Assembly: GCA_905178155.1 (NCBI GenBank)
Contig: CAJINV010000015.1
Coordinates: forward strand, 333,309 to 397,308
Length of the DNA stretch: 64,000 bases
Source of the DNA: Amoebophrya sp. A120
Taxonomy: Eukaryota; Protista; Dinoflagellata
Direction: 5' to 3'
The notes under the pieces were generated by a model, which made no database searches, was not told the DNA's origin, and saw only the letters and a program-made list of their open reading frames with translations. The position numbers were made by a program, and so were the translations under genes. Shown here one piece after another: positions 3,001 through 41,800 of this stretch. Position 1 is the first letter of the stretch. Every line of letters begins with the position of its first letter.

Positions 3001-6000
3001 CCGTCGGCGATCACGTAGCTGGCCAGCATCAGTTCGTGCAGGAAGGAAAGCACTCTGTGGATCCGGTTGATCTGGGTAATCAAATCCTCCTGCAGGACAA
3101 GTTTCTGCACACCATTATGGCATTCTCAACTGTTACATTCTCAACTGTTACATGATTTCTCATGCAAAATTGCAATTAGTTATCTACACGATCAAGCTGC
3201 TTCGCATGACAAGTTTTCAACGCACTAGATAGCATTAGAATCTGTGCCAAACTTGTAATGCAAAAGGCGCAATCTTCCGCCTTGGATTTTTGCCATTCTT
3301 GCATTACAAATCCATGTAACAGTTGAGAATGTAACATTTGAGAATCCCATAACCATTTTTCATATCATCGGCTTGCTGTCGGAGAAATTTGAAGTATTGG
3401 GCGAAAGAGTCGATGTTTGTCACCGGGCCATCTACTGGTCTACTTTGCGCAGCACCGTGTTGATCATTCTGGCGCGGCTCACTCAAAACCACCGCCCAGT
3501 CGGGGTGGGCGAGCATGCGGGGCACCAAAGACTCGGTCAGCAGTTTCAATAATTGCTCGAAACAAAAGTCTATGCACTGCAAAAGTATCGTACTCGTTGA
3601 AATGCATGACAAATTGTTCCCTCAGCATGAAAAATAAGATTTGTAAATGAGGATTTAGCTTGAGAAAAAAACTTGTAATGCATGATTGCAATACGAGTAT
3701 CAGATACTTTTGCACAGGATAAAGTCCGGCCGTTTCGTCGCCGTTCGCAGGTACTGCAGGGCGTGCAGCTGGGCGCTATCCAGTGCAAAAATGTCTGGCT
3801 CTGGAAGATTCTGACACTTGTCATGCACGTTTTGCATGAGCCATGATGTCCGTGATGCATACCCTAGCAATACAGATTTTCTGAGGGCTTCTTGATGCAT
3901 ATTCCGCATGACAAATGCCTTCTCAGCGGAGCAAATATTGCATTCCCTTTGTACTCATGCAATACAGATGGTTTTGGAATCCAAATGCAGCATCACAAGT
4001 TGCATTCTTCCAGACCCAGACGTTTTTGCATTTGATAGGCGTGCTGGTTGCCGAGCGAGTGTTTCTCCGTGACACTTTGGTCGGCCGCCTGGAAAAATTT
4101 CAGGAAAAAGTCCACCGTTTGCGCCGGCAAATCGCTGTGCAAAAACACGCTGGCTTGCAATTGCGCATTGGTCAAAGGAACGTTAGCGTGGTCCACTGGT
4201 CGAGTGTGCTCCAAGCCTTGAAAATAGTACTTTTCCAAGTGCGCCACAAAGTTCAGCAGGAGACCGCTGAATTGCAGTGCCTCCGTAGGAAAATGATCGC
4301 CGTCGTGGATCTTCCCCTCCGTCGGGTCGGATCCGGCGGGGTTCTCTTCGTTTTCTTTCTTTTTGATTTCCAGTATATCATTTGTAAAAACGTCCCCACC
4401 CCAGAGTCAAGATGGGGATTTTGCAACACAAACCTCGAAGTTTTGGGAGCCACGCATGACAAGTTGCAGGCTGTAGTGTAATGCAGTTTAGAAAGGGAAC
4501 CCGCATAACAAATTGATCTCCTTATCCTGTTTGAAGCATTACAAGTTCCAAAATACGCTGGGAAATGCCTCTCATGGGGATGCGCATTACAAATGCTCCT
4601 GCGCTTGCAGATCTGCATGACAACTCTGGGGTGGGGATGTTTTTACACAGGATACAGTAGTTCGCGCCGCCACTGCCTTTCAATGTCAAACACAAACACC
4701 GACTTGGCGTACTTGTGCATACCGTTCGCGATGTATGACAGTGCACAACTCCCCCTCCCCCTCATTTGTATAGCATGAACGGCAACACAAGCATCAGCCA
4801 GAGTGCCGGTTTTGCATGACAAAGTTGCACTAGATTGTAGTGCTAGTTGGGCTACCAGAACTTGTCATGCAAACAGTGCCAAGAGGCAAAGGTTGGGTGG
4901 ATTGGGTATTTTGCATCACAAACGAGGGGGAGGGGGAGGTGTGCACTGTCATACGATGCGGTTCAGAAGCTGGTATTGCCTTTGCGGAATAGTGGTGGCG
5001 CTCGCACTGCCCTTTGGTGTCAACAGCGGGGTTAGAACCTCCTTGTCAAGGAGCAGATTGTGCGGCGTAGAAGAAGTCCTCTCAGCACCAGCTCCCTCAC
5101 TGTCCCCCTTGGTTTGATGCCTCGCGGCGCCGGCTGGTAGCAGTTGGCGACTACTACCACCGCGGTGGAACAAATGGACACGATGACCTTCCTTCTCGTT
5201 ACTACTGAATAGAAACAGCTCTACTGCCTTCACGAGTTGTGTCATTTCCTGCGCAAAGTGGACTCGGTCAACACCCAGGATGGTTTTCTGCCGTGCTTGC
5301 TCGTGGTAGTGCTTGTCATCCGTCTATCCTGTGTAAAAACATTCCCACCCCATGCCATACTTGTTATGCTAAACAAAATGCGACACACTTTGCCCCCCCA
5401 TTGTGCCATGGCCGCAGATGGGCATGTCAAAATGTTTCTCATACGGAGCCCCATGAGAAGCATTTCCTGTTCGTGCTTTAGAATCTGTAATGCGCCAATT
5501 AGCATAGTAGCCTAGATTTTTTGTGATGCTGCTGAAGAACGAGCTAAACGGGATTACACTCCCAGGCCAAAGAACTTGTCATGCAACAACCTCCCAGGCC
5601 AAAGAGCAACAATCTAACCTTGTTGATTTGCCTAGCAGTTTTCCCATTTGTCTATGGGGTGGGGACGTTTTTACTCAGGATACCGGAGTCTGTGTATTTT
5701 CCGTCGTCTGCACCTGCGAGTGTGCGTTCTTCATGTTTGATTTTACCGCCGTACGCAGCAGCGCCAGCAAATCCGTGACTACGGTGGTGCGCTGGTGCAG
5801 TGTCAGGGCACCGCGGATTCGTTCTGAGGCGTGCTCTTTATCATTATCTCCCCCCAGCTGCGTTGTTTTCAGGTACCGCTCGCCGACGGCCAACAGCGCC
5901 TGCAGTGCGCGCTGCTTGACTTCTTTGGGTAAGTTATCCTGTGTAAAAACGTCCCCACCCCAGCAGAGTTGTCATGCAAATGCGCAACGACAGGAACATT

Positions 6001-24205: not shown

Positions 24206-26023
24206 CTTCCAGGAAATGAAAGTCAATAACTGTTGTCGGGGTGGAAGGCGAAGGTTCGATTTCCGAAAACAATGGACAAAACAAAAATCAATCGTAATAT
24301 CAAAACAAGCGGAAATGGAAATCAGACAAAGATCGAAATTAGAAAATGAAACTGTTTCTTGTCATAGGTGGGCTTGCCTCACGTGTAATTCATTGTGGGC
24401 AGCAACTATAATCGACATCGGGTTCAAAAAAGTTCTCTTCTTTGGCTCTTCAAGATGCGCAAAAATACAGGGGTAGACATTTCTTTTTCAGACAGAGAAA
24501 ATTGTAATCACACGACACCAATAAATCCAAAAACAAGGACACCCTATTACGGCGCTCAGAAATGAAACTAGACTAATCGACTTGACTCAAACAAAAGGGG
24601 AAAACTGCCTTCCCGCTTTTCATCTTCTTTCTGCAGTTTTCTGGTACTTCTTCATGTGATTTGTTTCATAAACAACCTTTTGCACTACACACGAATGTTC
24701 CCCTGAAACCCCGCGAATATCTTTGACCTCCCTCCCTCTTGAAGATGCGATACAACGTACTAGATCTTCTATTGCGTACCCTAAACATCTCAAAGTTTTG
24801 ATTTTGAACCTTCCAAGTCTGGGGCCACCGTGCGAATGCGCTTCAACATAAGGTACACGTATATGAGATCAAAATTATGTTGATCATTCTCTGCAACCCT
24901 TCCTATTCCTTCCACTTCAAGAATACTTGGTCAACAAAGGATCGCTCTGCTGTAGACAACAAGTTGACAGCCTGTTCAAGTTCATTCGTTCTTGCAGGGG
25001 GGCCATGCTGCTGACAATAAGTAGAGATCCCTCAGATCCCTCAGAGATATATCTATATGAAAAGCAGGATCTTTGCCCTGGTGGCAGCGACAGCAAAGGC
25101 ACACAAAAGACACCGACACTGTTCCTAATCTTGGACTTAATATTTTTGCGAAGATCTTCCTGCAATGTTCCCGAACTGATTGTGCTTTTTTTACACCAAG
25201 AAATACTACTAGACTTTGACTTAATACTATTGAGCGTTTGATCCTCACACCGTCGTGGCCGCCCCTCGGGGCGATCGGTACGTATCCTAGTATACTGTAA
25301 ATCATGAGAAGATCCTTTTATTAGTTTTACTTCCCGTTTCCACCAGAGAGACCAGGATTTTTGTAGCAGCTATAATTATATGCGCCCACTCGTCGGTGGG
25401 GTGCATTTTTTTCCCCTGAGTAAACTCACTTCTTTCCGTAGATGGAAATAGAAAATGCCCTCGAAGTTGTAGACAAAACGAAATCTCTCCGAGCTGCAAA
25501 ATGTTGTCACAACAACTCATCACGGGCAGAAGTCAGCTCGAGAAGTAGAGGGACATCTTCATGCTTTTGCTCTTATTCATTTGTAACAATCTTCTTTTTT
25601 TTCTCAGAAAACGAATTACTCTGGCCAAATATAACGAAATCTGTATTCTCTGCACAGAACGAAAATGAAATACATGAGCTTTTTGCTTCACACACAGCAA
25701 AAGGCTAGCCCTAGCGCTAGTACAGTAGTAAAAATCCGCATCAACTTAGCAGGAGCGACCTGCATAATTTCATTCTTACACTCACGACGCAATGTTGCCT
25801 GTTCTGCAACCACACAGATTTTTCATGTTGCCCGTCTGTAAGTACTTCACCTACTATACGTCGCCATGGTCGTCCAACATGCAAGCCGGGTTTTTCATCA
25901 AAAAACAAAAAACGGCTGTACAAGCAGACTATAATGCCACATTCAAACGTGTACCGGACCACCACATCCAAACTGGCAATTTCGACTCGTTCCTGCTGTT
26001 CCGTTATCCACCCGTGCAAGCCC

Positions 26024-27096
26024 ATTGGATAAGGGGCGGGGGAGAAGGAGAGCGGCCTTCACCGTTCCTAGGCCTCCAACTCTGCCTTCCCCCGTATTGA
26101 ACTCTCTGTCACCATGGGAAGCATGGGCACGAGAGAACTGGCAAACAACGGGTGGGTGGGTGGGATTTCTGAAAAATTCAACTCCCCGGCCCCTCTTCCC
26201 CAAGGAAAAGGTCCAGCCGGTGGACCGTGCAGTAGCTTACCAGGGATTTGCTAGCCCTTGAACCAAAACCGTCGCGTATCGTCTCTTAGTCGAAAACGAT
26301 GCACCGGGGTGCATCCATATTTCGACTCGTTCCTGCTGTTCCGTTATCCACCCGTGCAAGCCCATTGGATAAGGGGCGGGGGAGAAGGAGAGCGGCCTTC
26401 ACCGTTCCTAGGCCTCCAACTCTGCCTTCCCCCAAACGACGCATCGCCGACGGCCCGGAGAACCCATGCTCAGCTGCTGAATCCGGGCAACAGGAGGAGG
26501 TGGAGGCCCCACTAGGTGGCCATCACCTTCGCCACCGCCAAACGTGCTTTCTCGTTGTCCTTGCGCATTGCCGTTCGTTTGGCGGTGGCGAAGGTGATGG
26601 CCACCTAGTGGGGCCTCCACCTCCTCCTGTTGCCCGGATTCAGCAGCTGAGCATGGGTTCTCCGGGCCGTCGGCGATGCGTCGTTTGGGGGAAGGCAGAG
26701 TTGGAGGCCTAGGAACGGTGAAGGCCGCTCTCCTTCTCCCCCGCCCCTTATCCAATGGGCTTGCACGGGTGGATAACGGAACAGCAGGAACGAGTCGAAA
26801 TATGGATGCACCCCGGTGCATCGTTTTCGACTAAGAGACGATACGCGACGGTTTTGGTTCAAGGGCTAGCAAATCCCTGGTAAGCTACTGCACGGTCCAC
26901 CGGCTGGACCTTTTCCTTGGGGAAGAGGGGCCGGGGAGTTGAATTTTTCAGAAATCCCACCCACCCACCCGTTGTTTGCCAGTTCTCTCGTGCCCATGCT
27001 TCCCATGGTGACAGAGAGTTCAATACGGGGGAAGGCAGAGTTGGAGGCCTAGGAACGGTGAAGGCCGCTCTCCTTCTCCCCCGCCCCTTATCCAAT
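26024..27096. repeat. 1073-bp palindrome (521-bp arms, 31-nt loop 26545-26575)
   Basis: 26024-26544 is the reverse complement of 26576-27096; ORF track shows identical mirror ORFs on both strands. Confidence 0.95.
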
Positions 27097-27306
27097 AGCG
27101 CTGCCCAGTCCTAAAGTCGCCTCCTGCGAAGCTTCATCATCATCATCATCGTCCGCCCCTTCCAGTAGGGCCAGCTCTTTCGCGCAAATAGTTTGCGCCT
27201 TCTTCTTCTTGATCGCCGCGGGGGCGGCAGCCTTCGCGTGCACCTTCCCCACCTTCCCTTTCGGCTTCGCAGCCGCTTTCTTCATAGCCTTAGCCTTGGG
27301 TGCCAT
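27088..27306 (-). CDS. small Lys/Ala-rich basic protein with acidic patch (H1/HLP/DVNP-like composition), possibly truncated by the palindrome
   Basis: MAPKAKAMKKAAAKPKGKVGKVHAKAAAPAAIKKKK...DDDDDDE; stop lies inside the palindrome arm. Confidence 0.55.
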   Translation of the reverse strand: MAPKAKAMKKAAAKPKGKVGKVHAKAAAPAAIKKKKAQTICAKELALLEGADDDDDDEASQEATLGLGSAIG

Positions 27307-27831
27307 AGTGGTCCTAGTTATGTTCGAAAAGAGTAAGAGCCGTAAGTGCCTCAAGCTGTAAGATGATGTGCCGGACTATGCCTAAAACTAGAGCACAGCC
27401 AAATCCCCTGTAGAAATGAAAACCCAAATTGCGGCGGAAATGAAGCTAGGCATAAGCATCCTGGAGCTCGAGCGACGCTCTATCACACCGGATCTAATGA
27501 ACAGAAGCATTTCGTCAGAGCATGGATCCCGAAGACCAGCAATTTAGTGCGATTTATAGACACTCACACCGGGATACCGAAAAATGAACCCAATGAAATT
27601 TCTGAACCCGATTTGCGCACAGCAGAAGCTTCCGCTGTGAAATGCAAGGAAATAAGGAAAGTAACCACATGCCAGCTCCCTACGTCGAAAGACCTAAGTA
27701 CCTCATGGCGCTCCTCTTCACAGAGCGCATTTCTATTTCAAGAGACCGCGCCACATCCTACTGCCCATCGGCATTGATTTCAATAATTTAGGACCTTGCA
27801 CTGTTTGGCATGAAGATGTGACTTTGACACA

Positions 27832-28770
27832 CTACGAGAGGTTCCGGAGAGGGAGCCAGGAGCACACCAAGTCCCCATCTTTGTGTCTTTCAAAATCCTC
27901 AGAGTAGTCGAAAAATGTCCCCGAAGCGTCCGACCAACCTTGTCGGAAATTGCACTCCTTGCGCGCTTTCTCCTGTTTCTTCGTTGACATTTTCGCCATT
28001 GCAGTACGGGCTGCCAGGGCGCAAGTTCTGCGAAGCCCATGCGGGGTAGAATCAAGCGCCTTCGTCGCGGTCACTATTTCCGCTCGGGAAATCGGAAAAA
28101 GCGTAGCCCAGTCTGCCACCTCACAAATCGGGCAGCAATTGATGCCCGGATAACCACAGCTGCGCTTGAGCTCTACCCGGCGGAACTGCGTTGTCTTGTC
28201 TTTCCTAACTTGTAGCTGTACCCCCTGCACGACAAAACGCTTGGCCTTCTTAATGCCCGTGAGAAAAACCTGCCGGCGGGAAATGTGGCACAGAGTATCT
28301 GCCCGGAGCCCCAAAGCGCACCCAACTACTACTATTTCGCGCTCCCTGCTTGACAAGTGCCCAAGCCCCGCCGTATGAAGTGGGCATGCTTTCTTCGGAA
28401 GCATCTGGCGGCTTTTGAGGTACCGCGTAACTGCTCTCTTTAGGCCTCGCAGCTGTCTCTCGAAGAGAACATTACGGATGCTCCCCCTCTCCGACTCCAC
28501 TGCTACCACGGAATCGAGGTAGGCGTTAGTGCTAGAATATCCACCGCCCGGCTGCGTCAGCAAATATGACGCGAAAACTCTCAGATGGGAAATCTTGACT
28601 ACTGAACCCGGAGCCGGACCTTGCTCAGCTCTAAACTTCTCCCAAGTACGGACATGTGAGGCCTGCGGACCAGCCCCCCCCGAGCCTGGGGCTCGTAACG
28701 CGTCGGGCTGACCCTCCCGAAAGGAAACGGGCATACTTTTACCAAACCTTCCACAGAAACTGGAGAGCAA
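27832..28770 (-). CDS. tyrosine recombinase / phage-integrase family protein
   Basis: Catalytic set in order: LGLRADTL (R), KDKT (K), HGLRR (HxxR), QGW (W), FFDY (Y). N-terminal core-binding-like segment LRVFASYL...YSSTNAYLDSV. No introns. First ATG at 28734. Confidence 0.9.
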   Translation of the reverse strand: MLSSFCGRFGKSMPVSFREGQPDALRAPGSGGAGPQASHVRTWEKFRAEQGPAPGSVVKISHLRVFASYLLTQPGGGYSSTNAYLDSVVAVESERGSIRNVLFERQLRGLKRAVTRYLKSRQMLPKKACPLHTAGLGHLSSREREIVVVGCALGLRADTLCHISRRQVFLTGIKKAKRFVVQGVQLQVRKDKTTQFRRVELKRSCGYPGINCCPICEVADWATLFPISRAEIVTATKALDSTPHGLRRTCALAARTAMAKMSTKKQEKARKECNFRQGWSDASGTFFDYSEDFERHKDGDLVCSWLPLRNLS

Positions 28771-29864
28771 ATTGAATACACCTATGCACTGGGTGTGCAG
28801 AAAAGAGAGGAGTCACCAGAAATCGAAGGGTGGACTTCAATCAAGCCTCAAGACAGAGCAATGAAAACTACCGGAAAGCAAACAACCTCGAGTCATAGTC
28901 AAGAGTAGCCTGTTGGAGAATTTCATGGACTTCGACCTAGTAAGAGAGGTAGACCAGCCGCGCAGTGAGGCAGTGTGCTAAACAGCGAGAACAATAGAGA
29001 CCCCATTTATTTTTCCAGAACAAGTTGGAGCCATCCCTAGATCGCCACAAAGCCCAAAAAGGGGATACATGGGGAACATTTCCGATCCTGAGCAGGAGGA
29101 GCTCGCAAATAGTATGTGTAAATCTTGATGGACCTTACGCCCAAAAACGGTTGATCGCTCGGCCCTAGAGCATAACAATACTACCATTTCTCTGACCAAC
29201 TCCGTCCCTGCGGTCGTAGGATAACGGGTTCTAACCGCCATTGCCTAGAGCCGAGCGACAAGCGTAAGGTCACTTTTCATCGGTGAGCCAATCTGCCTGC
29301 CACATCCCAAAGAAACCACTCCAACCGGAGGCAGCCGAGCCCAAGGGAAAAACCCCGCGTTTCCTATGCCTTGCCGGAAAACCCGACCCCGTCGTGTATT
29401 AACCACACGACCTCCTGATGCCTTACGTGGAGCCACGTATTCTTCCTGTTAGAGCCAAAAATCTCATCTGAGACCCATATCCGGAGGTATCCCAAGCCTC
29501 AAGCCCCCACTCTGCTAGCTGCAGAGACCGCTGCCATTTTCCCTCCTAGTTCTTCAAGATACCTCTACAAGAAAAACCCCAGCTATCTGCTGATCCGTGC
29601 CAAAGCTCCATCCCCTCTGAACAAAGGGGGGGTAACAACTAGGTGCCACCTACCCGCGCATCAGCGCCTTTCCTAATCTTCCGGAATTTCTGAAAAATTC
29701 AACTCCCCGGCCCCTCTTCCCCAAGGAAAAGGTCCAGCCGGTGGACCGTGCAGTAGCTTACCAGGGATTTGCTAGCCCTTGAACCAAATCCGTCGCGTAT
29801 CGTCTCTTAGTCGAAAACGATGCACCGGGGTGCATCCATAAATAAAAGCGACCCGATCATTGAC

Positions 29865-32261
29865 TCAACTCATCTGCTCCAGGCACCGCAAGGAAGACGC
29901 AGACGGGGTAAAAAGAAGGGGCGGGTCTTGTGTCACCGCTCTATCTGGCGGGCAGTTGTGGTGATCGTGGTGCTGTAGTGCATTACTTCTAAGAGCTTCA
30001 GCTGCACGTAGTTCTTCTTGGAGATCTATCCAGGAAAAAACAACCATCCCCATCCATTTTATGCATGACAAACAAAGGAGTTTATACATGTTTTGCATGA
30101 CAAATTGGATGGGGATGGGTGTTTTTTCCTGGATAAGATCTCGTTGCATACCGTCCGGCTGGTCGTGCTCTTCTTCCAGCACTCCCCGTGAAGGCGGGTC
30201 AGCACTTATCGTAAGGAAAAATCCCGCCTCCCCATATTGAAAAGGTATGCTTCCGAAAATTAGTGTTGCTGATTTGAGGTCACAAATCACGTTTGTCTTG
30301 CAAGAAGACAAGGGCAGAAGCTTCCGCCCCAATATGGAAGACATTTGTCATGCTGTTGGGCCTAAAGGGGAGCCGTTTGCCATCCTGAACAACTAGACCC
30401 GTGCGCCCCTACCTAGCCCGGGGATCTGGCCGCAATGCCTCTTTGCAATACAGCGCTGATTTGTGTAGTACACAAATACAGCATCAGAAGCTCCGTTTTG
30501 ATATGGGGAGGGGGGATTTTTCCTCTCAATAGCACTGGAACGAAAGTTCCCTCGATCACTCAAATTTTCCGCGTCAGAAGTCCTCGACACCATTTGCCCG
30601 TCTGTGTCTGTGAACACCACCGTCGGCCGGTGGACGGGCGGTGCTGCTGCTGCTCCTGCTGCGGCCTCCTGCAAACAGCCGCGTGCGAGTTCAAACATCG
30701 CCTCGCAGTCCGGGGAGAAAGAGTTGTACTCGAAAAGGCAATATCCTGCGCAAAAGTATCGTACTCAAACTGCAGTCATGCATTACAAATGCTTTTCTTA
30801 CGGTAAATCTTCACTACAAATTTCATTTCTCATACTGAGGAAATTTGTTATACATTTAGACGAGTACGATGCTTTTGCATTTCATAGGCAAACGTCCATC
30901 AATCGGGCGCGGCTTGTCCGCAAGCTGCCATGTTGAATCGGCAGGAGGGGAAGCTCCGATGACGATGAGGTGTAAGTGGTAGTGGTCCTGTTTTTTGTGC
31001 CCGTTCCGTGCTGGAAGAGACAGTCCGGGAATCCTAGATGACTCCTTCCGGATCCAGGTCGTAACGCTGAGGGGGAAGATGACGGAGTCGCAGGGACGAG
31101 TGGTGGAGACACTGCTCTTCTTGCTGAAGAAGTTCTTGTAGATCCAGGTGTAGTTGTACTAGCCATGGCCGCTGCTGCTCCACCGCTGCTGCAATAGTTT
31201 GACGGCCGCTCTTCGTCATCGTCTGTTCGGTAAAAATTCTGTACAGCGCCGTCGTTTTCTTCTCCCCGTCCTTTCGTCGGAAGTAGTGGGTTCAAGTGCG
31301 ACGGCTCCGACCTGCATGCCTGAACCGTCGTTGTTTCTGCTCCAGCGACCCTGTGTGGAGCAGCGTGCACGCGGCAGGATGGTTCAGGTATACTAGTACA
31401 ACACGGGGACTTTTCATGACTCGTGCTGTCTAAAAAAGTGTGTGGTTTCAATTTGCTTGCAGTTGGACTTGGGTCATCTGCTGCAACGGTATCCGAAGTT
31501 TCACTTTTACTCGACGGGCCGCCACTTCCCGAAGATATCGTGCTCTGCGGATCTGCTTTTTGGGCGAAAAAAAGCAGAGACGAAGATGTTGAGCAGCTTT
31601 TGGTGGAACAAATAAACCTCGACCCCGTTGCTTGGGCAGCGTTGGTTCCTGGGAAATGATCGTGTTCCTCCGTTTCTTCTTCATCTTCTGAAAACCGCAC
31701 TTTTTTGTTCATTTTCCGTGAACAAGAACTACCAAAGCTAATGCTTGTTCCTGGGCTCCCTGTAAATATTCCCTGCTCGTCACGACTGAAGATTTTTCTC
31801 GATGATGTGCTTCCCGATAGTACATCCTTAAGTTCCTTCGTTCCACTCGGAGACAAAATCGAAGCAGGTTGTTCTGGTCGGAGTTGTGTAGCACCGCCAT
31901 TCTTATCGTACTGCTCGTGGTGCACTTCTTCTAGGTGAGCCTTGTCAACATCACGACTACTGACGACCTCTCGTCCAGAAAGTTGCAGAAACACATTTGT
32001 GCTCGAAGAGGAGGAGGAGGAGGCAGCAGCGAGGACGCCGGTTGATTTATTTGATGCAGCATTCGCACAGCTCATCTCGTCGTCGTCGGAACGCATGCAC
32101 GGTCGTACTTGCTTTGGGTGATGCACGGTTGTTCTCTTCGGGAAAATACGCAAGTCCGGGTCATCGTGTAGAAGTAGAGCCTGGGGTGACGCCGAGCTGG
32201 TCGGTTGTTCTACACGAAAATCTCGTGCAGAAAGTATGGAAAAAAAAAAACAAACACGCAA
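29865..32261 (-). CDS. Gene 3: Ser/Thr-rich low-complexity hypothetical protein, 3 introners; 5' end uncertain
   Basis: 459-aa exon ORF; in-frame joins RSSA|DPPSRG and QRDL|QEELRA...LEQMS*. Confidence 0.65.
30027..30135. mobile_element. introner family I (109 bp, almost all hairpin)
   Basis: TIR tatccaggaaaaaac; DR agatc; in-frame junction. Confidence 0.9.
30207..30531. mobile_element. introner family C
   Basis: TIR; DR gcact; in-frame junction. Confidence 0.9.
30742..30886. mobile_element. introner family D
   Basis: TIR; DR ggcaa. Confidence 0.9.
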
Positions 32262-32427: not shown

Positions 32428-33900
32428 TATAGTTGGGGCTGAGTCCGTTACGGTTCGTTCCGGTTCGTTTCACCGTAACGAACGAATTTTCGTTCGTTCG
32501 TTACGGTTCGTTATGGTTAACGAACGAACGAACGAGTCCGTTTGTGGCATCAGAACGAACGAACGAACACACTGGCTTTGCCATCCAAGCGAACGAACGA
32601 ACGAACGAACGAACGAACGAATGCGTGTTCGTTCGTTCGTTCGTTCGTCATGGTTCGTTTCACCGTAACGAACGAACGAAGTGGCTTCGCGGGTCCGCTA
32701 ACGACCAAACGAACGAACGAATGGACTTTCGTTAGCTCGTTACGGTTCGTTTCACCGTAACGAACGAACGAACGAGCCCGATTCTATCTTCCTAACGAAC
32801 GAACGAACGAACGAATGGCTTTTCGTTCGTTCGTTCGTTATGGTTCGTTTCACCGTAACGAACGAACGAACGAAGTGGCTTTGCGCGGATCCGGGGCCCC
32901 GGAGATCGGAGACTTCGGGAAGCCGGAGTGCGCCTGCGGGGGGCGGCTCATCACAAAATTAGCCCTGCCATCCTTCGGAAGATTCCGCGCGGCGGTGCTA
33001 TGTGTTTTCGAAAGTAATGTTTATAAATGCAGGATGCCGTCGCGGGGAATATTCCGCAGGACGGTATTCTCGATTTATATGCGGAAGGGGGCCCTTCGAC
33101 CGGATGCTACACGGACGACCACGGAGAGGAGTCGCCCGCCGCCCCTTCCTGAGTGCCAGCCTCGACTGCCAGCCGGCAGATCGTTTATCGGAAAGGGGGG
33201 CAAGCCCCGCGATGGACTCGCCACGAAATCTGCCATGCCATCCTTCGGAATATTCCGCGCGGCGGCGCTATGTATTTTCGAATGCAGAAAGTCGCACGGA
33301 ATATTCCGAAGGATGGCGCAGCGGCTCGACATCAACCAGCCATGTCCGCCAGCTGCGCGACGTGCGCCAGGAAAGGGCGCCGGCCGTGACGCACCAAGGG
33401 GCTGCCCGCGCGGGGGACACACATGCAGGAACTTTTGGCCCCCACACTACTGATTCAGGCCGGCACACTCGGATGCCTAGAGCTCCACCCGGAACACGAG
33501 CACGGGTATGAAGTCGCATTTTTCTTCAACAAACCGCCGCCCCTCCGAAGTACTCACTGACCTTGTTCGCTAAAGAAAAACGAACAAAGCCGGCACCGGA
33601 GAAGGCGGCAATGCTGCCGAGCCGCCGACCTTCTTCGCCGTCTCGCGGAAGTTTTGGCCTTTTGCAGCTTTCACGCACAGACACCTTTTTCACACAATCA
33701 GATTCGTTCGTTACGGCGTGCCGGCTCCTGACGAGCTCGTTCGTTACGGTGAAACGAACCGTAACGAACCATAACGAACGAACGGAAGTTCGTTCGTTAC
33801 GGTGAAACGAACCATAACGAACCGTAACGAACGAACGAAAATTCGTTCGTTACGGTGAAACGAACCGGAACGAACCGTAACGGACTCAGCCCCAACTATA
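32428..33900. mobile_element. non-autonomous TIR element (1.47 kb), ~90-bp TIRs TATAGTTGGGGCTGAGTCCG, subterminal (AACG)n/(CGTT)n arrays
   Basis: 32428-~32518 is the reverse complement of ~33810-33900; no credible ORF. Confidence 0.9.
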
Positions 33901-34154
33901 CTCTTTGCGACACAATATACTTAGCTGTGGGGGGGTCCCTTGTCCCTTGTCCCTTTTTTTGGTCCGGAAGAGGGACAAGGGACAAAGGTCGGCTTTGAAG
34001 CGACGAAAGCGGCGAAAAGGTCCCTTGTCCCTTCTCTTGGTAGTGATTTGGACCAACTTTTTATCGGCCAAGAAAATCGAAAAAAAATCCGGTGGCGCGG
34101 CGAAACTGTAGAGGCCAGAGCCAACCAACGTAAGGGGGGCGATTCCCGATTCCC

Positions 34155-34930
34155 GAATTTTGCATTGCTCAAAATCGATTTTGCATTCCCGCAGACGCGG
34201 ATTTCACAAAATCGATTTTGCATTGCACGAAACCGAATCCCGCAAAATCGATTTTGCATTGCACAAAATCGATTTTGTATTGCACAGCATCGATTTTGCG
34301 TTGCACAAAACCGAATCCCGATTTTGCAGTGCACAAAATCGATTTTGCATTGCACAAAACCGAAAGCAGCAAAATCGATCTTGCATTGCACAGAAACGAT
34401 TTTGCATTGCACAAAATCGATTTTGCATTGCACAAAACCGAATCCCGATTTTGCATTGCACAAAATGGATTCTGCATTCCCGCAGACGCGGATTGCACAA
34501 AATCGATTTTGCATTGCACAAAACCGAATCCCGCAAAATCGATTTTGCATTGCACAAAATCGATCTTGCATTGCACAAAATCGATTTTGCACTGCACAAA
34601 ATCGATTTTGCTCTGCACAAAACCGAATCCCGATTCTGCATTGCACAAAACCGAATCCCGCAAAATCGATTTTGCATTGCACAAAATCGATTTTGCATGG
34701 CACACAACGCAGATTGCACAAAATCGAAGCCGCAGACGCGGATTGCACAAAACCCCTCCTCCAGACGCGCAATCCCGCAGATTGCACAAAATCGATTTTC
34801 CATTCCCCCAGAACGCAGCGCCGACCACAAGGCCGGTTTTGAGCTGACCACAGGTGGTTCGATGTTGTGGGTCGCGCAAGGGCTGTTGAAGGCCACACAA
34901 TCGCCCGACCACACAAAATCGATTTCGCAG
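34155..34930. repeat. minisatellite of ~21-bp units GCACAAAATCGATTTTGCATT with palindromic core AAAATCGATTTT; dispersed copies continue to ~37015
   Basis: direct reading. Confidence 0.9.
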
Positions 34931-35349
34931 CTTCCCAGGTCCGACAGAATCGAGCGGCCGCGTGGCTCAATATCGAGGCGGTGCGCCACGCAATCCGCCG
35001 GGCCGACGGACTAGGGGGGAGAGCTTCCAGCTATGCGCTTTAGCGGATCTCCCACAAAATCGATTTTGTGCGTCCGCCCTTTCTTCGCGGATGCAGTCTC
35101 CCACGCCAATGCCTTACCAACCCCCGTCCCAGCCCGCGCCCTCAGAGGTACGGGCAACGGGCCCTACCGGCCACAAAGTCGATTCTGCAACCCCTCAACC
35201 CTATGGACAACGTCGGCACCTTGCCGGACATTAGATTTTCCGGAGAGATCTGGACTTCCGGAAAGATCTCGGGAGATCGCTGCGGTCCGGATTTTCCGAC
35301 TTCCGGAAAATAGAGCTTCCGAGAAAATAGCAGAAAATCGATTTTGTGC

Positions 35350-35800
35350 CTCCATTACTATTCAATAGTAGCGAGATCGGACTAAACCTGGTCCATACCA
35401 TCGGCGGAGGCAGTTGCTTACTATCCAGTTGGTAAGCTGCTGCCAAAAATCCAAAAAAAATCCGAAGGCAGTCGCGCTCGAGGTGTCGCGCGCAAAAATC
35501 CGCGCTGTTTTGTGTTGCGTCCCGAGCAAAATAATAATTACTATTGAATAGTAACCAACTGCCTCCGCCGATGGTATGGACCAGGTTTGGTCCGTCTCCG
35601 TTACTATTGAATAGTAACTCGCGCGCACTTTTGGCGCATTTTTGGCGCACACTCGGGCGCACTTTTGGCACACAGAAAATCGACTTTGAAGCGCCTCCGA
35701 ATCTCTTGAAAGTGCAAGCGTTCGGATTTTTGGCAGCAGATTACCAACTGGATAGTAAGCAACTGCCTCCGCCGATGGTATGGACCAGGTTTGGTCCGTT
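35350..35800. repeat. internal inverted/direct repeat module (…CTGGTCCATACCATCGGCGGAGGCAGTTG…)
   Basis: copy at ~35385-35435, reverse-complement copies at ~35553-35590 and ~35742-35795. Confidence 0.8.
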
Positions 35801-37095
35801 CTCCTTAGCAATGAAGCAGAAAATCGATTTTCCGAGTCGATTTTCGATTTCGAGGACTTGCTGATGTCCCGATCTCGATTTTCGATTTCGGAAAATTCCG
35901 GATTTTTCGCAAACTCCGGACTTTTCGAAATTTCCGGAATTTCCGGAACCCGGAAAATCGATTTTTCGGCAGTCCCGGAAAGTCCAAGCAACGCGCGGAC
36001 TTCCGGAAAACTTGCTCCTCTGGATTTTCAGGAAGTTGGAAAATCGATTTTGGCAAACAGCCGGACAGCCACCTGCCTTACCCACATAGCAGGCCCGCGC
36101 CACCTCTTTTGCCCGCACCACCACTGACGCGGACATCGCACAAGGAGCGGTCCAACAAAATCGATTTTGCACGCCTCGGGTGATTGAACCCGCAGACGAT
36201 TCTGCGAGCCTGAAATAACTAAAATCCCCGACTCTGCGCCCCATCAAGCGCCCAGCGGCTGTCGAGGACTGAGCCGCGGCACCCACCGAGGGCTGTCTGT
36301 TTACAAAATCGATTTTGCGACCCCCGCGCCAGCCGAGAGCCTGTTCCTGGCGCCTCTACGGAGCTCAGAACACGCAGACGGGGCCCATGCCGCTCCCGCG
36401 GCTTTTCAGAACTTGGGCCCGGATGTAAGTCACAAGCTCGGGCGTTTTTCATTGCTTTCTACGCTGGGCCAACGCGATGAATGTGCGGAACTTCATCGGG
36501 GCGCAAGTTCTGGAATTCGCGATCATCCCTAAGCCTGTAGCGTGCGAGCGAAACATCGATCCAAGGCGGGCAGAGGCCCGTCCTCTGCGACTTCGCCCCA
36601 CGCAATCAATTTTGCAGCTTTTGCCGGATTTTCCGGCTTTTGTGTTGGTAAAATCGATTTTGCGACCACGCGCGGATTGTGTGGCCCCGCCCGAGGATAG
36701 GGCATCTTCGAAAAGCGTGCCCGAAGGGTGCGCACAAAATCGAATCTGTCCGCGGGTACTCACAAAATCGATTTTGTGAGCACCGCCCGCCGGGCGGAAC
36801 ATGACAACCCGGCGCCCCCAACCCGGCTGCGGGAATCTTTCTGGCAGCCCGGACGCTCCAGGGTGGGGCCTAACGCCTCAGGACACCGGCAAAAACTGCC
36901 GCGAGACCGAGTTGGCGCATTCTCGAGCTTCGAGAACGCGGGCAACCGACTTCGTTTCGCGCTACTTTGCTTCGCTTGTGGACGTTAGCAGCCGCGGCAC
37001 AAAGTCGATTTTTTGCGGCGTGCCTGGATTTTTTGCGGATTTTTTTCCGATTTTCTTAACATTTTTGAAGTCGGTCCAAATCAGTACTAACTTCT

Positions 37096-38860
37096 CGCGA
37101 AGGGACGAAGGGACAAGCAAAAGGGACACGTGCTCTCATGCATTTCCTGAAAAGGGACAAGGGACAAGGGACAATGACCACGTGGATATCATCCATTTCC
37201 TGAAAAGGGACAAGGGACAAGGGACAATGACCGCTTGTGTATCATCCATTTCCTGGAAAGGGACAAGGGACAATGACCGCCTGTGTATCCTCCATTTCCT
37301 GAAAAGGGACAAGGGACAAGGGACAATGACCGCTTGTGTGTCCTCCATTTCCTGAAAAGGGACAAGGGACAATGACCGCTTGCGTATCCTCCATTTCCTG
37401 AAAAGGGACAAGGGACAAGGGACGATGCCCGCTTGTGAATCCTGCATTTTCCGAAAAGGGACAAGGGACAAGGGCCGCTTGTATATCCTCCATGTTCCGA
37501 AAAGGGACAAGGGACAAGGGACAAGGGCCGCTGGTATCTCCTCCATTTTCCGGAAAGGGACAAGGGACAAGGGACAATGGCCGCACGTATATCCTTGAAG
37601 TTCCCAAAAGGGACAAGGGACAAGGGACACATGTATGCCATCCGATACCCGAAAAGGGACAAGGGACAAGGGAAAGCGTTTATATTCTCCAAGATCCGAA
37701 AAGGGACAAGGGACAAGGGACGCCGTTACACTCTCCGATACCCGAAAAGGGACAAGGGACACGGGGCGCATGCATTTCCCCCATTTCCCGAAAAGCGACA
37801 AGGGGCAAGGGGCACCTGCCGCCCTTCATTTGCCCAAAAGGGGCAAGGGACGTGGGACCCCAGGCAGCCTCCATTTACCTTAAAGGGACAAAGGACAAGG
37901 GACGTGCGACCCGAAGGAGCCGAAGCCGCTAAATTGGAAGAGATCCCGGCGACATGCCCTGCACCGCCACCTCCCCAGGTAGACCCGCGCCATTCCCGCC
38001 GTCTCTGTCTCCTCTCGTTCTCTTTCTCCCGTCGCCTGGTCCCTTCGCTTTTCCCCTCGCACCCGTCCCCCCCCTCATTTGTCTCTCCCTCCCTTTGTCC
38101 CTCTCTCCCTTTCGGCTGGTCCCCTGGTCCCCTCCTGGTCCCCTGCGCCCCCGGTCCCTTCTCGCCTGTCCCTTGTCCCCTGTCCCTGTGTCCCTTCTCG
38201 CCTGTCGCTTGTCCCTGTGTCCCTTCTCCCCTGTCCCTTGTCCCTGTGTCCCTTCTCGCCCGTCCCTTGTCCCTGTGTCCCTTCTCGCCTGTCCCTTCTC
38301 CCCTGTCCCTGTGTCCCTGTGTCCCTGTGTCCCTGTGTCCCTGTGTCCCTGTGTCCCTGTGTCCCTGTGTCCCTGTGTCCCTGTGTCCCTGTGTCCCTTC
38401 TCCCCTGTCCCTGCGTCCCTTCTCCCCTGTCCCTTGTCCCTGTGTCCCTTCTCGCCCGTCCCTTGTCCCTGTGTCCCTTCTCGCCTGTCCCTTGTCCCTG
38501 TGTCCCTTCTCGCCTGTCCCTTCTCCCCTGTCCCTTGTCCCTGTGTCCCTTCTCGCCCGTCCCTTGTCCCTGTGTCCCTTCTCGCCTGTCCCTTCTCCCC
38601 TGTCCCTTGTCCCTTCTCGCCTGTCCCTTCTCCCATGTCCCCGTGTCCCTTCTCGCCTGTCCCTTGTCCCTTCTCGCCTGTCCCTTGTCCCTTGTCCCTT
38701 GTCCCTTTCGCCTGTCCCTTGTCCCTTTCGCCTGTCCCTTGTCCCTTTCGCCTGTCCCTTTCTCCCTTCCCGGTCAGAACCTGGGTCGCCTCCCGGCCCC
38801 TCGGGGACCTACAGCGTGTCCCTTTTGCTTGTCCCTTCGTCCCTTCGTCCCTTCGCGAGA
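37096..38860. repeat. AGGGACA heptamer arrays (37150-37900) facing TGTCCCT arrays (38090-38760), bounded by an inner inverted repeat (37096-37130 / 38815-38857)
   Basis: direct reading. Confidence 0.9.
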
Positions 38861-41800
38861 AGGGACAAGGGACCTTTTCGCCGCTTTCGTCGCTTCAAAG
38901 CCGACCTTTGTCCCTTGTCCCTCTTCCGGACCAAAAAAAGGGACAAGGGACAAGGGACCCCCCCACAGCTAAGTATACCCTTGCGACAAAAAAATCGAGC
39001 ATAGGCTCGTGATTCAGGCAAAGAAAATGCGAAAATTGCAATAGAGAGCCAAAAGTCAAACAAAAAGTTGCTTATTAAAACACTGTTGTGTGACACTTGT
39101 TGATTCTTTTTCACAAACAAAATCGGACTTGAGCCCGGTGCCGGACTGGAGCACGGAGCTGGCGGAAGAATTAGTTCTGGAAAATGTTGTACTGCGCCGC
39201 GGGAATCATGATTCGTAGATGAATCGGGTTCAAGACGAGAAGGATTACCTATGTTCAGTCCTGCACCGCAATAGTTGACCACAACGCGGTCGTCGGAACA
39301 AGGGGGATCGCTATGTACTTGTTCGTCGAAGCAGCGCGATAGACCCTCAGAGTGCTCGACAGGGTGGGATACACGTCGTTGCAAGCGCTGCCCTCGTCTA
39401 ACAGGATCACCAGCGACGTTCATGTGGTCCTCCTCCCGCAGGTCAGTGATATCAACATGTTGACCATTGTCACCTACACGACAAAACAAATCCTCTGCAG
39501 CGTCGATCATTCCTCCCACACGCGGAACAACCCTCCTTTGCTCCATCCGCGCTGCAGTGGGGTCCTGGAAGGCGTGCATGAAAAAGCGAGCACAATGCTC
39601 AAGTTTTTTGCAAAAGTTCTTCGCATTTCTGCAGGGGTTTGTTGTACAACTTCTGCCGGAGATTGTTCTGTGTCGGCCGGAAGAATCATCTTCATCTTCA
39701 GTAAGAACAAACCGTGTTGTTGTATCATGATCCTCTAAATCCCTTCTAGCCGAAGACGGGCTGCGGGACGACACGCCAGATGAACTTCGTCGCCGATACG
39801 CAGAAGTAGCCCCAAGAACTGCACCTCCCGCATGCGAAGTTTGGTGTTCTCGTCGCTGCCGACCGGCTCTTGCGTGCAGATTTTGTTGCACGGAAGATGA
39901 ACCACGTCGATACTGACTGCATCTCCCCGACGGTAACGTGGAAAACACCGGCACAATGTGCTGCAAATTTTCCTCGTTAGAATTTTGGCCTGCTCCAGCA
40001 GCAGCAGTTCTTCTTTGTGCTTCCACCTGGTCGCCGTCCTTTCGTTCTTGCTGCACGGTGGTCCTCGGCTGACCATGTTGCTGCTCAACACCACGGGTGG
40101 TCTTCAGAGGACCATTTTTACGACCCGCAGAAGTAGTAGAACAACTACCACTCACACAACAACTCTGGCCACGATCATTCTCCTGCTGCTCCCTTGTGGT
40201 CACCAGCCGCTCCTGGTACTGCTGAAGATGCGTCATGTATCGCACGAAAAAACTGTTTCACTGTGGTGATTTAGCAAAATCTGCATCACAAGTTTGTGAC
40301 GCGTGACACTGAAAGTCTGTCATGCGAGGTTCCTAAGGGAAAACACAGCTACAAATCCACTGTCTTGCACGTGTGGCATGACACACACTTCTGCGTTCCA
40401 TTTTCTGCATCACAAGTTCACAGTGAAACAGTTTTTTCTTGCGATATCATGGCATGCCCGATCACGGCGCGCCGGATTGTCGCCGTGCTCGGAAGTAGTG
40501 GCGAAAATGAGGATATGGAATTTGTTGAACGGCCGCTGCGAGACACCACCGGCGGACGAGACGAAGAAGCAGGTGCGGTCCTTGTAGATGTTTCCATAGA
40601 TGATTTTGCACCACGTAGCTTCGTCCCGCTACTACTACAACCACCTGCCTTCGACGACGCTGCTACCGCCCCGCCCCACCGATCCGGGGGCGGGGAGCTG
40701 CTTGTTGTCTTCATCCCTTCTTTCGAGGTTTTTCTGTTCCTTGGGGTTTTGCTTGAAGATAATATTGTTCCCTGCCCCGAACTACAACTAGAGCTTCGGT
40801 GAACGACGACCGCAAGTGCGCTCGACGAACTCGTTGCAGCTGTATTTCCAGCTGGGGGCGATTTCGCCCGGGCGCTGAGATAGCCTTCCACAATATTCGC
40901 GCGAAACATCTCGCGGAGTTTTTGGGTCCCAGGAGATACCTGGCGGGAGAAGGTGGAGAGGGCTTGCTGGGCCTCGGAGGAACCGCTACATGGGAGAGGA
41001 CCGCGGGCTTCGGCTTCGCCTAGGTGATCTGGTAGTAGATTACCATCCTCTACCTCGGAAAGGGTTAATGTTGACGATGATTCATCACGTTCGGCGCCCT
41101 CCAGGCTTCCTGCTCGAACTTCCGGTGTCGAAGTTTGTTCGGCAACGGGGGTACAGCACGTGCTACTAATGCTCTTATCAACACGTTTCATCGCGTTCGC
41201 CTTCTCTGTGGTCTTACCTCGTTGCACCAACAAGGATTGCGAATTCCTGCTCTTGATGCTTTTTCGCTCGCGCAAGCCCTCGTCTGTTCTTGATGGTATA
41301 ATTGAGACGGCCCGTTCCACCTGCGCTTGGCTTTCCTTGCTTGCGGAAGAAGCTTTTTGATGTACACCTTCTACTACCGATGGATCATGCGAAGTAGATC
41401 TACTTCCATCTTGACCCGGTGATGACGGTATCATGTGACCCACCTTATGAGGATCAGGATGAGCAGTAGTAGCTTGTTCCCGCTCATGTTGCAAGCGGAG
41501 CTGCTGCTGTTGCGCACCTCCTCGTCCTGCTGGAGCGGCTGTCTCTGCCGCGGCCCGTTCAGAGGAAGATGAAACCGACGCCGGCGATGCAGATGATGTT
41601 GGCGATAACGGTAGTACTAGAGAGCCCACCCCAGACGTCGCATTTTTGCTGTTCGATAAAATCCGCTGCACGCTGGGTTGCTCCAACAAATCCTCCAGAA
41701 AATCAACCGACGAGCGATCATCGTCTTCAGTATCTGTGGGATCATCATTCCGGCTCGTATCTTCAGAAGGCTCGTCATCATCATTCTCTTGATGTTGTAT

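What the first reader, a model, noticed from the sequence alone, without database searches (positions are those of the whole stretch)
25979..29840. Tyrosine-recombinase element with split direct repeats but no visible RT, starting with the same TAT end as introners: candidate mobiliser
Seen: intact intron-free YR (R-K-HxxR-W-Y) and a repeat order on the minus strand of A1-YR-...-B1-A2-B2, with abutting B1|A2 (gagtcgaaa|tatggatgc). A1 begins TATGGATGC, the same first 9 nt as the family K introner at 712, and carries a terminal hairpin GATGCACC-GG-GGTGCATC. Only ~900 bp lie between A1 and the YR, with no RT/RNase H motif recognisable. Known: this repeat layout typifies Ngaro/PAT-type DIRS elements, which normally encode gag-RT-RH. 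Inference: a YR-only derivative or new element class whose recombinase could serve the TAT...ATA elements. The 9-nt match could be chance. It is inserted 25 bp after the stop of gene 3, and near-identical repeats suggest it is recent.
Basis: partly seen in the sequence, partly recalled or inferred. Interest (0 to 1): 0.88.

Follow-up and report, generated by a model that had tools for sequence, protein, structure and literature searches.

The report
RT-less recombinase element with giant hairpin
This is a single, likely young jumping-gene copy, likely from an Amoebophrya parasite, that has a tyrosine recombinase gene and retrotransposon-type end repeats but no reverse transcriptase, so it likely borrows one; it is unlikely to move the genome's introners, and its 1-kb hairpin is missing from RNA-type contigs, likely through splicing.

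Summary
The element is real. On the minus strand it runs A1, an intact tyrosine recombinase (YR), then B1-A2-(68 nt)-B2, with no RT or RNase H in any frame.

The mobiliser idea is not supported. Window introners have 5-bp target duplications of arbitrary sequence (41 of 59 exact, 38 different), a DDE-type signature. The element has no such duplication, no ATA 3' end and no introner A-box. Relatives in the same DNA begin GAC where it has TAT. Its top-scoring YR hit is from Amoebophrya AT5.2, reported with 99.98% GT-AG introns.

Best reading: a single-copy, RT-less Ngaro/PAT-type element copied by an RT in trans, with an accidental fold-back duplication. In 4 of 4 RNA-type runs (one sample) the hairpin is removed at one joint without microhomology; both DNA-type runs run on into it. 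If that is splicing, it tests hairpin-guided splicing in Amoebophrya. Whether relatives carry RT could not be seen, so an RT-free lineage stays open.

The parts
29683..29840 (-). A1, 5' terminal repeat (155-158 nt); starts with the hairpin GATGCACC-CC-GGTGCATC; left junction with host TTATT|TATGG
   Evidence: junction in DNA-type and RNA-type contigs
28735..29682 (-). U1, non-coding leader; no gag, RT or RNase H remnant
   Evidence: 0 relevant Pfam hits; longest sense stop-free stretch 88 aa against a shuffle median of 83 (tested on 29682-28813)
27832..28734 (-). Tyrosine recombinase, 300 aa, core-binding plus catalytic domain; R144-K180-H232xxR235-W267-Y277; cysteine cluster at 193-204
27088..27306 (-). 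72-aa Lys/Ala-rich then acidic ORF of unknown family, in the region with the deepest RNA-type contigs; its stop lies in the first 9 nt of the hairpin arm
26576..27096 (-). Left arm of a perfect palindrome: inverted copy b'(70)-C'-A'-B'-X'; holds an inverted B|A junction at 26801
   Evidence: U2|arm junction inside DNA-type contigs of X1 and X2
26545..26575 (.). 31-nt loop of the palindrome
26434..26544 (-). X, 111-nt segment in front of B1
26319..26433 (-). B1; B1|A2 is the internal copy of the circle junction and folds into a two-stem hairpin
26162..26319 (-). A2
26094..26161 (-). C, 68-nt spacer; a G-quadruplex-like run spans the A2/C border on the + strand
25979..26093 (-). B2, 3' terminal repeat; right junction GTCGAAA|TTGCC, only 1-2 T shared with the left flank
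26001..27114 (-). 1114-nt stretch absent from RNA-type contigs (candidate non-canonical intron TT...GG that covers the whole hairpin)

Best explanation
The element encodes a tyrosine recombinase and carries split direct repeats but no reverse transcriptase, and it most likely is a Ngaro/PAT-type retroelement whose RNA is copied by an RT supplied in trans and whose own recombinase likely inserts the copy. Steps. (1) Shown: A1...B1-A2-C-B2 layout with an internal B|A junction, intact YR, no target duplication beyond 1-2 T, one copy in the genome. (2) Inferred from the known family: a transcript from A1 into B2 is reverse-transcribed, the internal B1|A2 copy serves as template to rebuild both ends, and the YR recombines the B|A junction with a host T-containing site. 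(3) Inferred: the RT-less form itself moved, because the repeats are near-identical while no gag/RT stump is left. (4) Inferred: the 521-bp palindrome is a fold-back duplication of the 3' block peculiar to this copy. (5) Shown: RNA-type contigs lack 27114-26001. Inferred: host hairpin-guided splicing removes it (my odds: 55% splicing, 30% RT template switch in the library, 15% DNA deletion in that culture), which strips the internal repeats and would make the spliced RNA a dead end. (6) The introners are likely moved by a different, DDE-type enzyme.
For: Repeat layout. YR: mean pLDDT 89; best matches Tn1549 integrase and Cre, E 3e-4 to 8e-4, TM 0.43-0.48. No RT in 68 stretches; U1 and U2 no more open than shuffles, P 0.42 and 0.21. 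Single copy: one DNA-type contig 27067-29715 at depth 40.2 beside a flank at 32.5, A at 110.6. Relatives in the same DNA also hold a B|A junction at single-copy depth 29-46, so the layout is a family trait. Dinoflagellate YR retrotransposons with A-coding-B-A-B layout are published (PMC5890265, passages); a DIRS-1 RT can copy a defective RNA in trans (PMC7192593, passages). Introner ends differ in kind.
Against: No RT-bearing helper or parent was seen. No whole genome is held; the scans for DNA around relatives gave no locus. No contig at 88% identity or more covers the YR a second time, so a helper would have to be diverged. The YR could not be placed against known Ngaro, PAT or Crypton YRs. 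Segment C has depth 38.9 in X1 (one copy, two expected) and no cover in X2. The RNA joint comes from one sample and from contigs whose RNA status is the tool's guess.
Confidence: 0.62

Rival explanations
1. An RT-free lineage of YR DNA elements: the split repeats and the B|A hairpin let a single-stranded DNA copy fold, and the YR recombines the folded junction, as integron integrases do with attC (analogy recalled, from no call).
For: The B|A junction folds into an 8-bp stem, an unpaired spacer and a 7-8-bp stem, with the crossover at the stem edge (z -2.05 and -2.31; 6 and 2 of 200 shuffles fold as well). The variable first letters (TATG, GACG, GACC) lie in that spacer. None of 27 homologues has an RT domain. 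Five related YRs sit on contigs of 2.7-2.9 kb, like this element's 2.65-2.77-kb unique part.
Against: The hairpin signal is modest. Separate YR ORFs are normal in DIRS-order elements, so the lack of fused RT says little. Other relatives lie on contigs of up to 8-10 kb, and short metagenome contigs are common. The internal B|A copy is what RNA-based end repair needs.
Confidence: 0.13
2. An ordinary autonomous Ngaro/PAT element inserted here and then lost gag-RT-RH by deletion in place.
For: Single copy with no near-identical parent elsewhere. Internally deleted Ngaros are known (ORF1 deletions, PMC8547959, passages).
Against: A deletion younger than repeats that are 99-100% identical should leave open stumps; U1 and U2 show none.
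Confidence: 0.12
3. A1...A' (29840-26801, 3040 bp) is itself a TAT...ATA element with 158-bp inverted repeats and a YR, like Euplotes Tec3 (recalled, from no call), and the rest is a later rearrangement.
For: A1 and A' are 99% complementary over 158 nt and bracket the YR.
Against: A' continues without a break into B' as the exact inverse of B1|A2. Flanks share only TT, not 5 bp. Relatives show B|A junctions, and no listed loose end shows a host flank behind A' (2 and 3 loose ends not shown).
Confidence: 0.05
4. The YR is the missing mobiliser of the TAT...ATA introners.
For: 9-nt identity with the end at 712 (1.2% for random TAT words). No transposase was found in A120 (PMC7789003, passages). 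The YR region has RNA-type contigs at depth 4-6.
Against: 41 of 59 introners have exact 5-bp duplications, 38 different, at most 0.08 bits per position, against a null of 0.2%; YR recombination gives no such arbitrary duplication (PMC13465315, passages). A1 has CCCC where 81-93 of 102 introner ends have A. Relatives begin GAC. A close YR occurs in AT5.2, listed with 99.98% GT-AG introns (a draft annotation).
Confidence: 0.04
5. The palindrome or the whole repeat block is an assembly artefact.
For: Fold-back structures are a known long-read artefact (own knowledge). C has half the expected depth in X1 and none in X2. The best DNA holders may be the source sample.
Against: Short-read contigs cross U2 into the inverted arm in X1 and X2; depths in X1 fit 3 A and 4 B5 copies; the X piece stops at the arm's end.
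Confidence: 0.04

Closest known systems
Ngaro-like and PAT-like YR retrotransposons (order DIRS), including Cafeteria Ngaros (PMC8547959), Xenopus DIRS-53_XT (PMC9210276), SymbioDIRS of Symbiodinium (PMC5890265) and VIPER/TATE (PMC6681497)
   Same: A1...B1-A2-B2 split direct repeats with near-identical pairs, internal end junction, YR, no long target duplication.
   Different: No gag, RT, RNase H or methyltransferase; 3.9 kb; 68-nt spacer between A2 and B2; an extra inverted copy of the 3' block; a small basic ORF after the YR.
Non-autonomous split-repeat elements: SIRE of Trypanosoma cruzi (PMC6681497, passage) and TOC1 of Chlamydomonas (recalled)
   Same: RT-less derivatives that keep the repeats.
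   Different: SIRE is only the A2-B2 region, and TOC1 is recalled as having no coding function; this element keeps an intact, transcribed YR.
DIRS1-like elements (PMC7192593, passages)
   Same: An internal inverted copy of the joined ends (A'|B') is formally like the ICR.
   Different: The termini are A and B, not inverted repeats, and a direct B|A copy is also present.
Cryptons (PMC13465315, passages)
   Same: YR as the only enzyme, no RT.
   Different: Cryptons have only 4-6-bp direct repeats at the ends; this element has 115-158-bp split repeats; no DUF3504 hit.
Amoebophrya A120 introners; Ginger / IS3EU / IS481EU-type DDE transposons (PMC7789003, PMC12130899 Dataset file 8, PMC10045372)
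   Same: One end starts TAT; a hairpin is removed from RNA.
   Different: Introners have TAT...ATA inverted ends, an A-box and 5-bp duplications; the element has none of these as a unit.

Membership tests
Ngaro/PAT-type YR retrotransposon | Split direct repeats A1...B1-A2-B2 with matching pairs | tested here: met
   (156 of 158; 115 of 115); a spacer and an inverted copy are extra
Ngaro/PAT-type YR retrotransposon | YR with R-K-HxxR-H/W-Y | tested here: met
Ngaro/PAT-type YR retrotransposon | RT and RNase H ORF | tested here: not met
   0 of 68 stop-free stretches; longest non-YR stretch of the element 140 aa
Ngaro/PAT-type YR retrotransposon | gag-like ORF1 | tested here: not met
   U1 is no more open than shuffles; the 72-aa basic ORF has no family
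Ngaro/PAT-type YR retrotransposon | YR falls in the Ngaro or PAT clade | not testable with these tools
   no reference YRs could be fetched; the tree of 27 hits only shows an Amoebophrya clade
Ngaro/PAT-type YR retrotransposon | Moves through RNA, with an RT helper present in the genome | not testable with these tools
PAT-like or DIRS1-like | Methyltransferase domain | tested here: not met
DIRS1-like | Inverted terminal repeats at both termini | tested here: not met
   A' is internal; the 3' terminus is B2
DIRS1-like | Internal region complementary to both ends (ICR) | tested here: inconclusive
   A'|B' at 26801 is such a copy, but it is part of a 521-bp duplication and is absent from RNA-type contigs
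Crypton | YR as the only enzyme | tested here: met
Crypton | No long terminal repeats; 4-6-bp direct repeat at the ends | tested here: not met
Autonomous partner of TAT...ATA introners | TAT...ATA inverted ends | tested here: not met
   the 3' end is GTCGAAA; only the internal A' gives ATA
Autonomous partner of TAT...ATA introners | 5-bp target duplication | tested here: not met
   1-2 nt for both the whole element and A1...A'; 41 of 59 introners have it
Autonomous partner of TAT...ATA introners | Shared sub-terminal A-box (positions 11-14) | tested here: not met
   CCCC in A1; A in 81, 90, 93 and 86 of 102 ends
Autonomous partner of TAT...ATA introners | Enzyme acts on introner ends | not testable with these tools
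   needs a bench assay

The most novel reading that the evidence does not exclude
Amoebophrya and its marine relatives carry a lineage of YR elements with split repeats that never encode RT: the joined ends fold into an attC-like hairpin that the YR recombines as single-stranded DNA, the long palindrome is part of the copying route, and the host's hairpin-guided splicing switches the RNA between a replicative and a coding form.
Probability: 0.13. Interest if true: 0.85.

Novelty: new variant of a known kind. Interest (0 to 1): 0.5.

Why it matters
First, it narrows an open question. The mobiliser of Amoebophrya introners is unknown; the 5-bp arbitrary duplications measured here point to a DDE/integrase-type enzyme and away from YRs. 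Second, it shows an Amoebophrya YR lineage with at least one RT-less but YR-intact, split-repeat member, a form between retrotransposon and Crypton that my searches did not find described for this genus; the library lacks most subscription papers. Third, a young 521-bp hairpin with no introner ends and no GT-AG is removed at one exact joint. If that is real splicing, structure alone can create an intron in this parasite, and the locus is a ready test of how its non-canonical introns are spliced without U1.

Tried and rejected
No whole genome is held, so no genome-wide search for RT-bearing copies or empty sites. Pfam gave no hit for the YR alone; PHROG integrase only E 0.08; PDB sequence search 0 hits for the single protein and XerA at E 0.0014 for the profile. 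The single-sequence fold was poor (pLDDT 44) and was not used. Word-based homologue searches found only the protein itself, nothing longer, or one extra hit. DNA around relatives: no locus in metagenome, viral or prokaryote contigs; two alignments were too divergent to give patterns. A 5060-nt contig of X2 with an 82% A-like stretch first looked like a longer, RT-bearing relative; rejected as evidence, because the contig passes through A on both sides and its letters are not visible. Rfam hits on the palindrome tip are miRNA models below their cut-offs and reflect the hairpin only. The 72-aa ORF gave nothing in Pfam or the atlas and only weak PHROG hits. Look-ups of earlier findings by sequence or place were blank.
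Full report
Host. The window is full of 150-350-bp elements with TAT...ATA inverted ends. Farhat et al. 2021 (PMC7789003; I read the abstract, passages and sections 5, 10, 11) report that introner repeats of Amoebophrya A120 start with TAT and end in a run of A, and that no transposase was found in that strain. The best named YR hits are Amoebophrya proteins. I infer an Amoebophrya host of the A120 type.

Anatomy. On the minus strand: A1 (29840-29683), 948 nt non-coding, YR (28734-27832), 735 nt with a 72-aa basic/acidic ORF, then b'-C'-A'-B'-X', a 31-nt loop, X-B1-A2-C-B2, ending at 25979. A1 and A2 differ at 2 of 158 positions; B1 and B2 are identical. The flanks share only T or TT. Gene 3, read across its three introners, is a 612-codon frame that stops 25 bp before A1.

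Is the structure real? In DNA-type run X1 one contig spans 27067-29715 at depth 40.2; the host flank is at 32.5, A at 110.6 and the first 70 nt of B at 154.4, which fits one element with three A and four such B parts. X1 and X2 both cross from unique DNA into the inverted arm, and the X piece is 111 nt, the arm segment's full length. Against: C has depth 38.9 in X1 and no cover in X2; it borders a G-quadruplex-like run, which may explain the loss but was not tested. These runs may be the source sample, so they check the assembly, not another strain.

The recombinase. A full HMMER search gave 33 proteins at E 0.001 or better, one being the protein itself. I aligned the query with 26 of the other 32, leaving out short or partial hits: R144, K180, G266, W267 and Y277 are invariant and H232/R235 nearly so. 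The model from this alignment has mean pLDDT 89 and matches Tn1549 integrase and Cre. The protein groups with Amoebophrya AT5.2 g7792 and A120 CAD7975902.1 (support 99/95; many long branches elsewhere). A cysteine cluster lies before the HxxR motif in 19 of 27 rows.

No RT. None of 68 stop-free stretches in six frames hits an RT, RNase H, gag or methyltransferase family. Symbiodinium DIRS RTs are hard to detect with Pfam (PMC5890265, passages), but there is no room here: the sense frames of U1 and U2 are no more open than shuffles (P 0.42 and 0.21). With repeats this alike, a deletion after insertion should have left stumps, so I infer that the RT-less form moved as such. No second contig at 88% identity or more covers the YR, so no near-identical parent is in this DNA.

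The mobiliser test. I chose introners without using their flanks: 76 candidates outside the element, 59 after removing overlaps. 41 of 59 have an exact 5-bp direct repeat, 10 more match 4 of 5; the null from mismatched flanks is 0.2% and 2.1%. The 41 repeats are 38 different words, with at most 0.08 bits per position. This is the mark of a staggered cut in arbitrary DNA (established for DDE enzymes). YR elements are flanked by microhomology instead (PMC13465315, passages). Gozashti et al. [quoted passage not shown] IS3EU and IS481EU have TA..TA and TNT..AYA ends (PMC10045372, passages). The element has no 5-bp duplication, no ATA end, and CCCC where 81-93 of 102 introner ends have A. The 9-nt match is seen in 1 of 102 ends. 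It arises for 1.2% of random TAT words and at 28 of 805 other TAT sites, some of which may be uncatalogued ends; so it is uncommon but weak. More telling, contigs of relatives that share A's first 36-41 nt read GACG or GACC where this copy has TATG, both after host flanks and at their own B|A junction (loose ends in X1, X2 and X4; 2 and 3 loose ends were not shown). AT5, which has a close YR, is listed with 99.98% GT-AG introns, though that is a draft annotation.

The junction. B|A folds into an 8-bp stem, an unpaired spacer that holds the variable first letters, and the terminal hairpin; the crossover lies at the stem edge (z -2.05 and -2.31, so modest). A relative keeps A positions 5-30 unchanged (inferred from mismatch counts). 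This recalls integron attC sites (recalled, not tested) and fits the single-stranded cDNA shown for DIRS-1 (PMC7192593, passages).

RNA. Runs X3-X6 are RNA by the tool's guess. Their contigs run 1.3-2.6 kb into gene 3, where DNA-type contigs stop at the first introner, which supports the guess. In X3 the YR is covered at depth 4-6, the small-ORF region at 22 and gene 3 at 13; contig depths are a poor measure of expression. In 4 of 4 of these runs, all from one sample, position 27115 joins 26000; both DNA-type runs continue into the arm. The skipped 1114 nt start TT and end GG, have no microhomology, and end 5 and 9 nt outside the predicted stem base. RT template switching is favoured by direct repeats and by structure (PMC4176328, passages); only structure is present. 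Non-canonical splice sites in Amoebophrya have no fixed dinucleotides and vary relative to the hairpin. I put splicing at 55%, a library artefact at 30% and a DNA deletion in that culture at 15%. The joined frame is 87 codons and stops in host DNA at 25931 (one search counted 84 from the fourth codon), so it is unlikely to be an evolved product. The skip removes B1, A2 and most of B2.

Mechanism. Most likely (0.62) a split-repeat YR retroelement that lost gag-RT earlier, was copied by an RT in trans (shown possible for DIRS-1), was inserted by its YR at a T, and gained a fold-back duplication. The left arm equals the first stretch of a minus-strand copy that starts 70 nt into B2, as a snap-back and return would give (inference). 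Rivals: RT-free lineage 0.13, deletion in place 0.12, A1...A' inverted-repeat element 0.05, introner mobiliser 0.04, artefact 0.04.

Comparison and novelty. It works like a Ngaro/PAT element but fails membership on RT and gag; it fails Crypton on its long repeats. RT-less remnants (SIRE; PMC6681497, passages) and ORF1-deleted Ngaros (PMC8547959, passages) are known, and split repeats define Ngaro and PAT (PMC9210276, passages). Searches for Amoebophrya, introner or dinoflagellate with tyrosine recombinase listed three papers; I read passages of two, and neither describes this element in what I read; the third (PMC12220804) I saw only as a listing. Subscription papers such as Roy et al. 2023 were not read. 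Two earlier AI notes describe an RT-spanning intron and a gene-less split-repeat family in other genomes; they are leads, not support. Verdict: new variant of a known kind, interest 0.5.

Noticed in passing
window 30027-30135, 30207-30531, 30742-30886: The three introners in gene 3 plus one 5-bp repeat each measure 114, 330 and 150 nt, all multiples of three.
   Followed up: partly
window 29810 to 25859: One contig end in RNA-type run X4 joins A1 position 31 to host DNA at 25859 across a shared CGAC, skipping nearly the whole element from the gene 3 transcript; 1 of 4 such runs, possibly template switching.
   Followed up: partly
window 29789: Three letters at one A position: T in the window (+ strand), A in the DNA-type contig (as in A2 and A'), G in RNA-type run X3. 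Assembly error, variant or editing; unexplained.
   Followed up: no
loose end at window 26800, run X6: A contig 94% like the end of B continues with 23 different letters that by eye also form a GC hairpin followed by TTT, hinting that a distant relative keeps the junction's shape; one contig at depth 4.5.
   Followed up: no
window 26852-26889 and 26795-26832 (A'): Summed DNA contig depth reaches 230-440 in X2 against 29 for single copy, so short parts of A have many more look-alikes in the genome.
   Followed up: no
P0001 residues 193-204: A CxC...Cxx[CH]-type cluster in 19 of 27 aligned YRs, a possible zinc site; absent from one metagenome subclade.
   Followed up: partly
window 3571-4037, 52597-53045, 56199-56668: The same two introner families lie about 30-55 bp apart at three places, and the pairs align over about 470-500 nt.
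   Followed up: no
window 32430-32900, 33737-33900, 34146-34812, 35333-35985: Arrays of short palindromic repeats (GTTC/GAAC type and others) upstream of gene 3.
   Followed up: no
window 38001-39000: Extreme skew (GC -0.43, AT -0.74), probably a simple repeat; not read.
   Followed up: no
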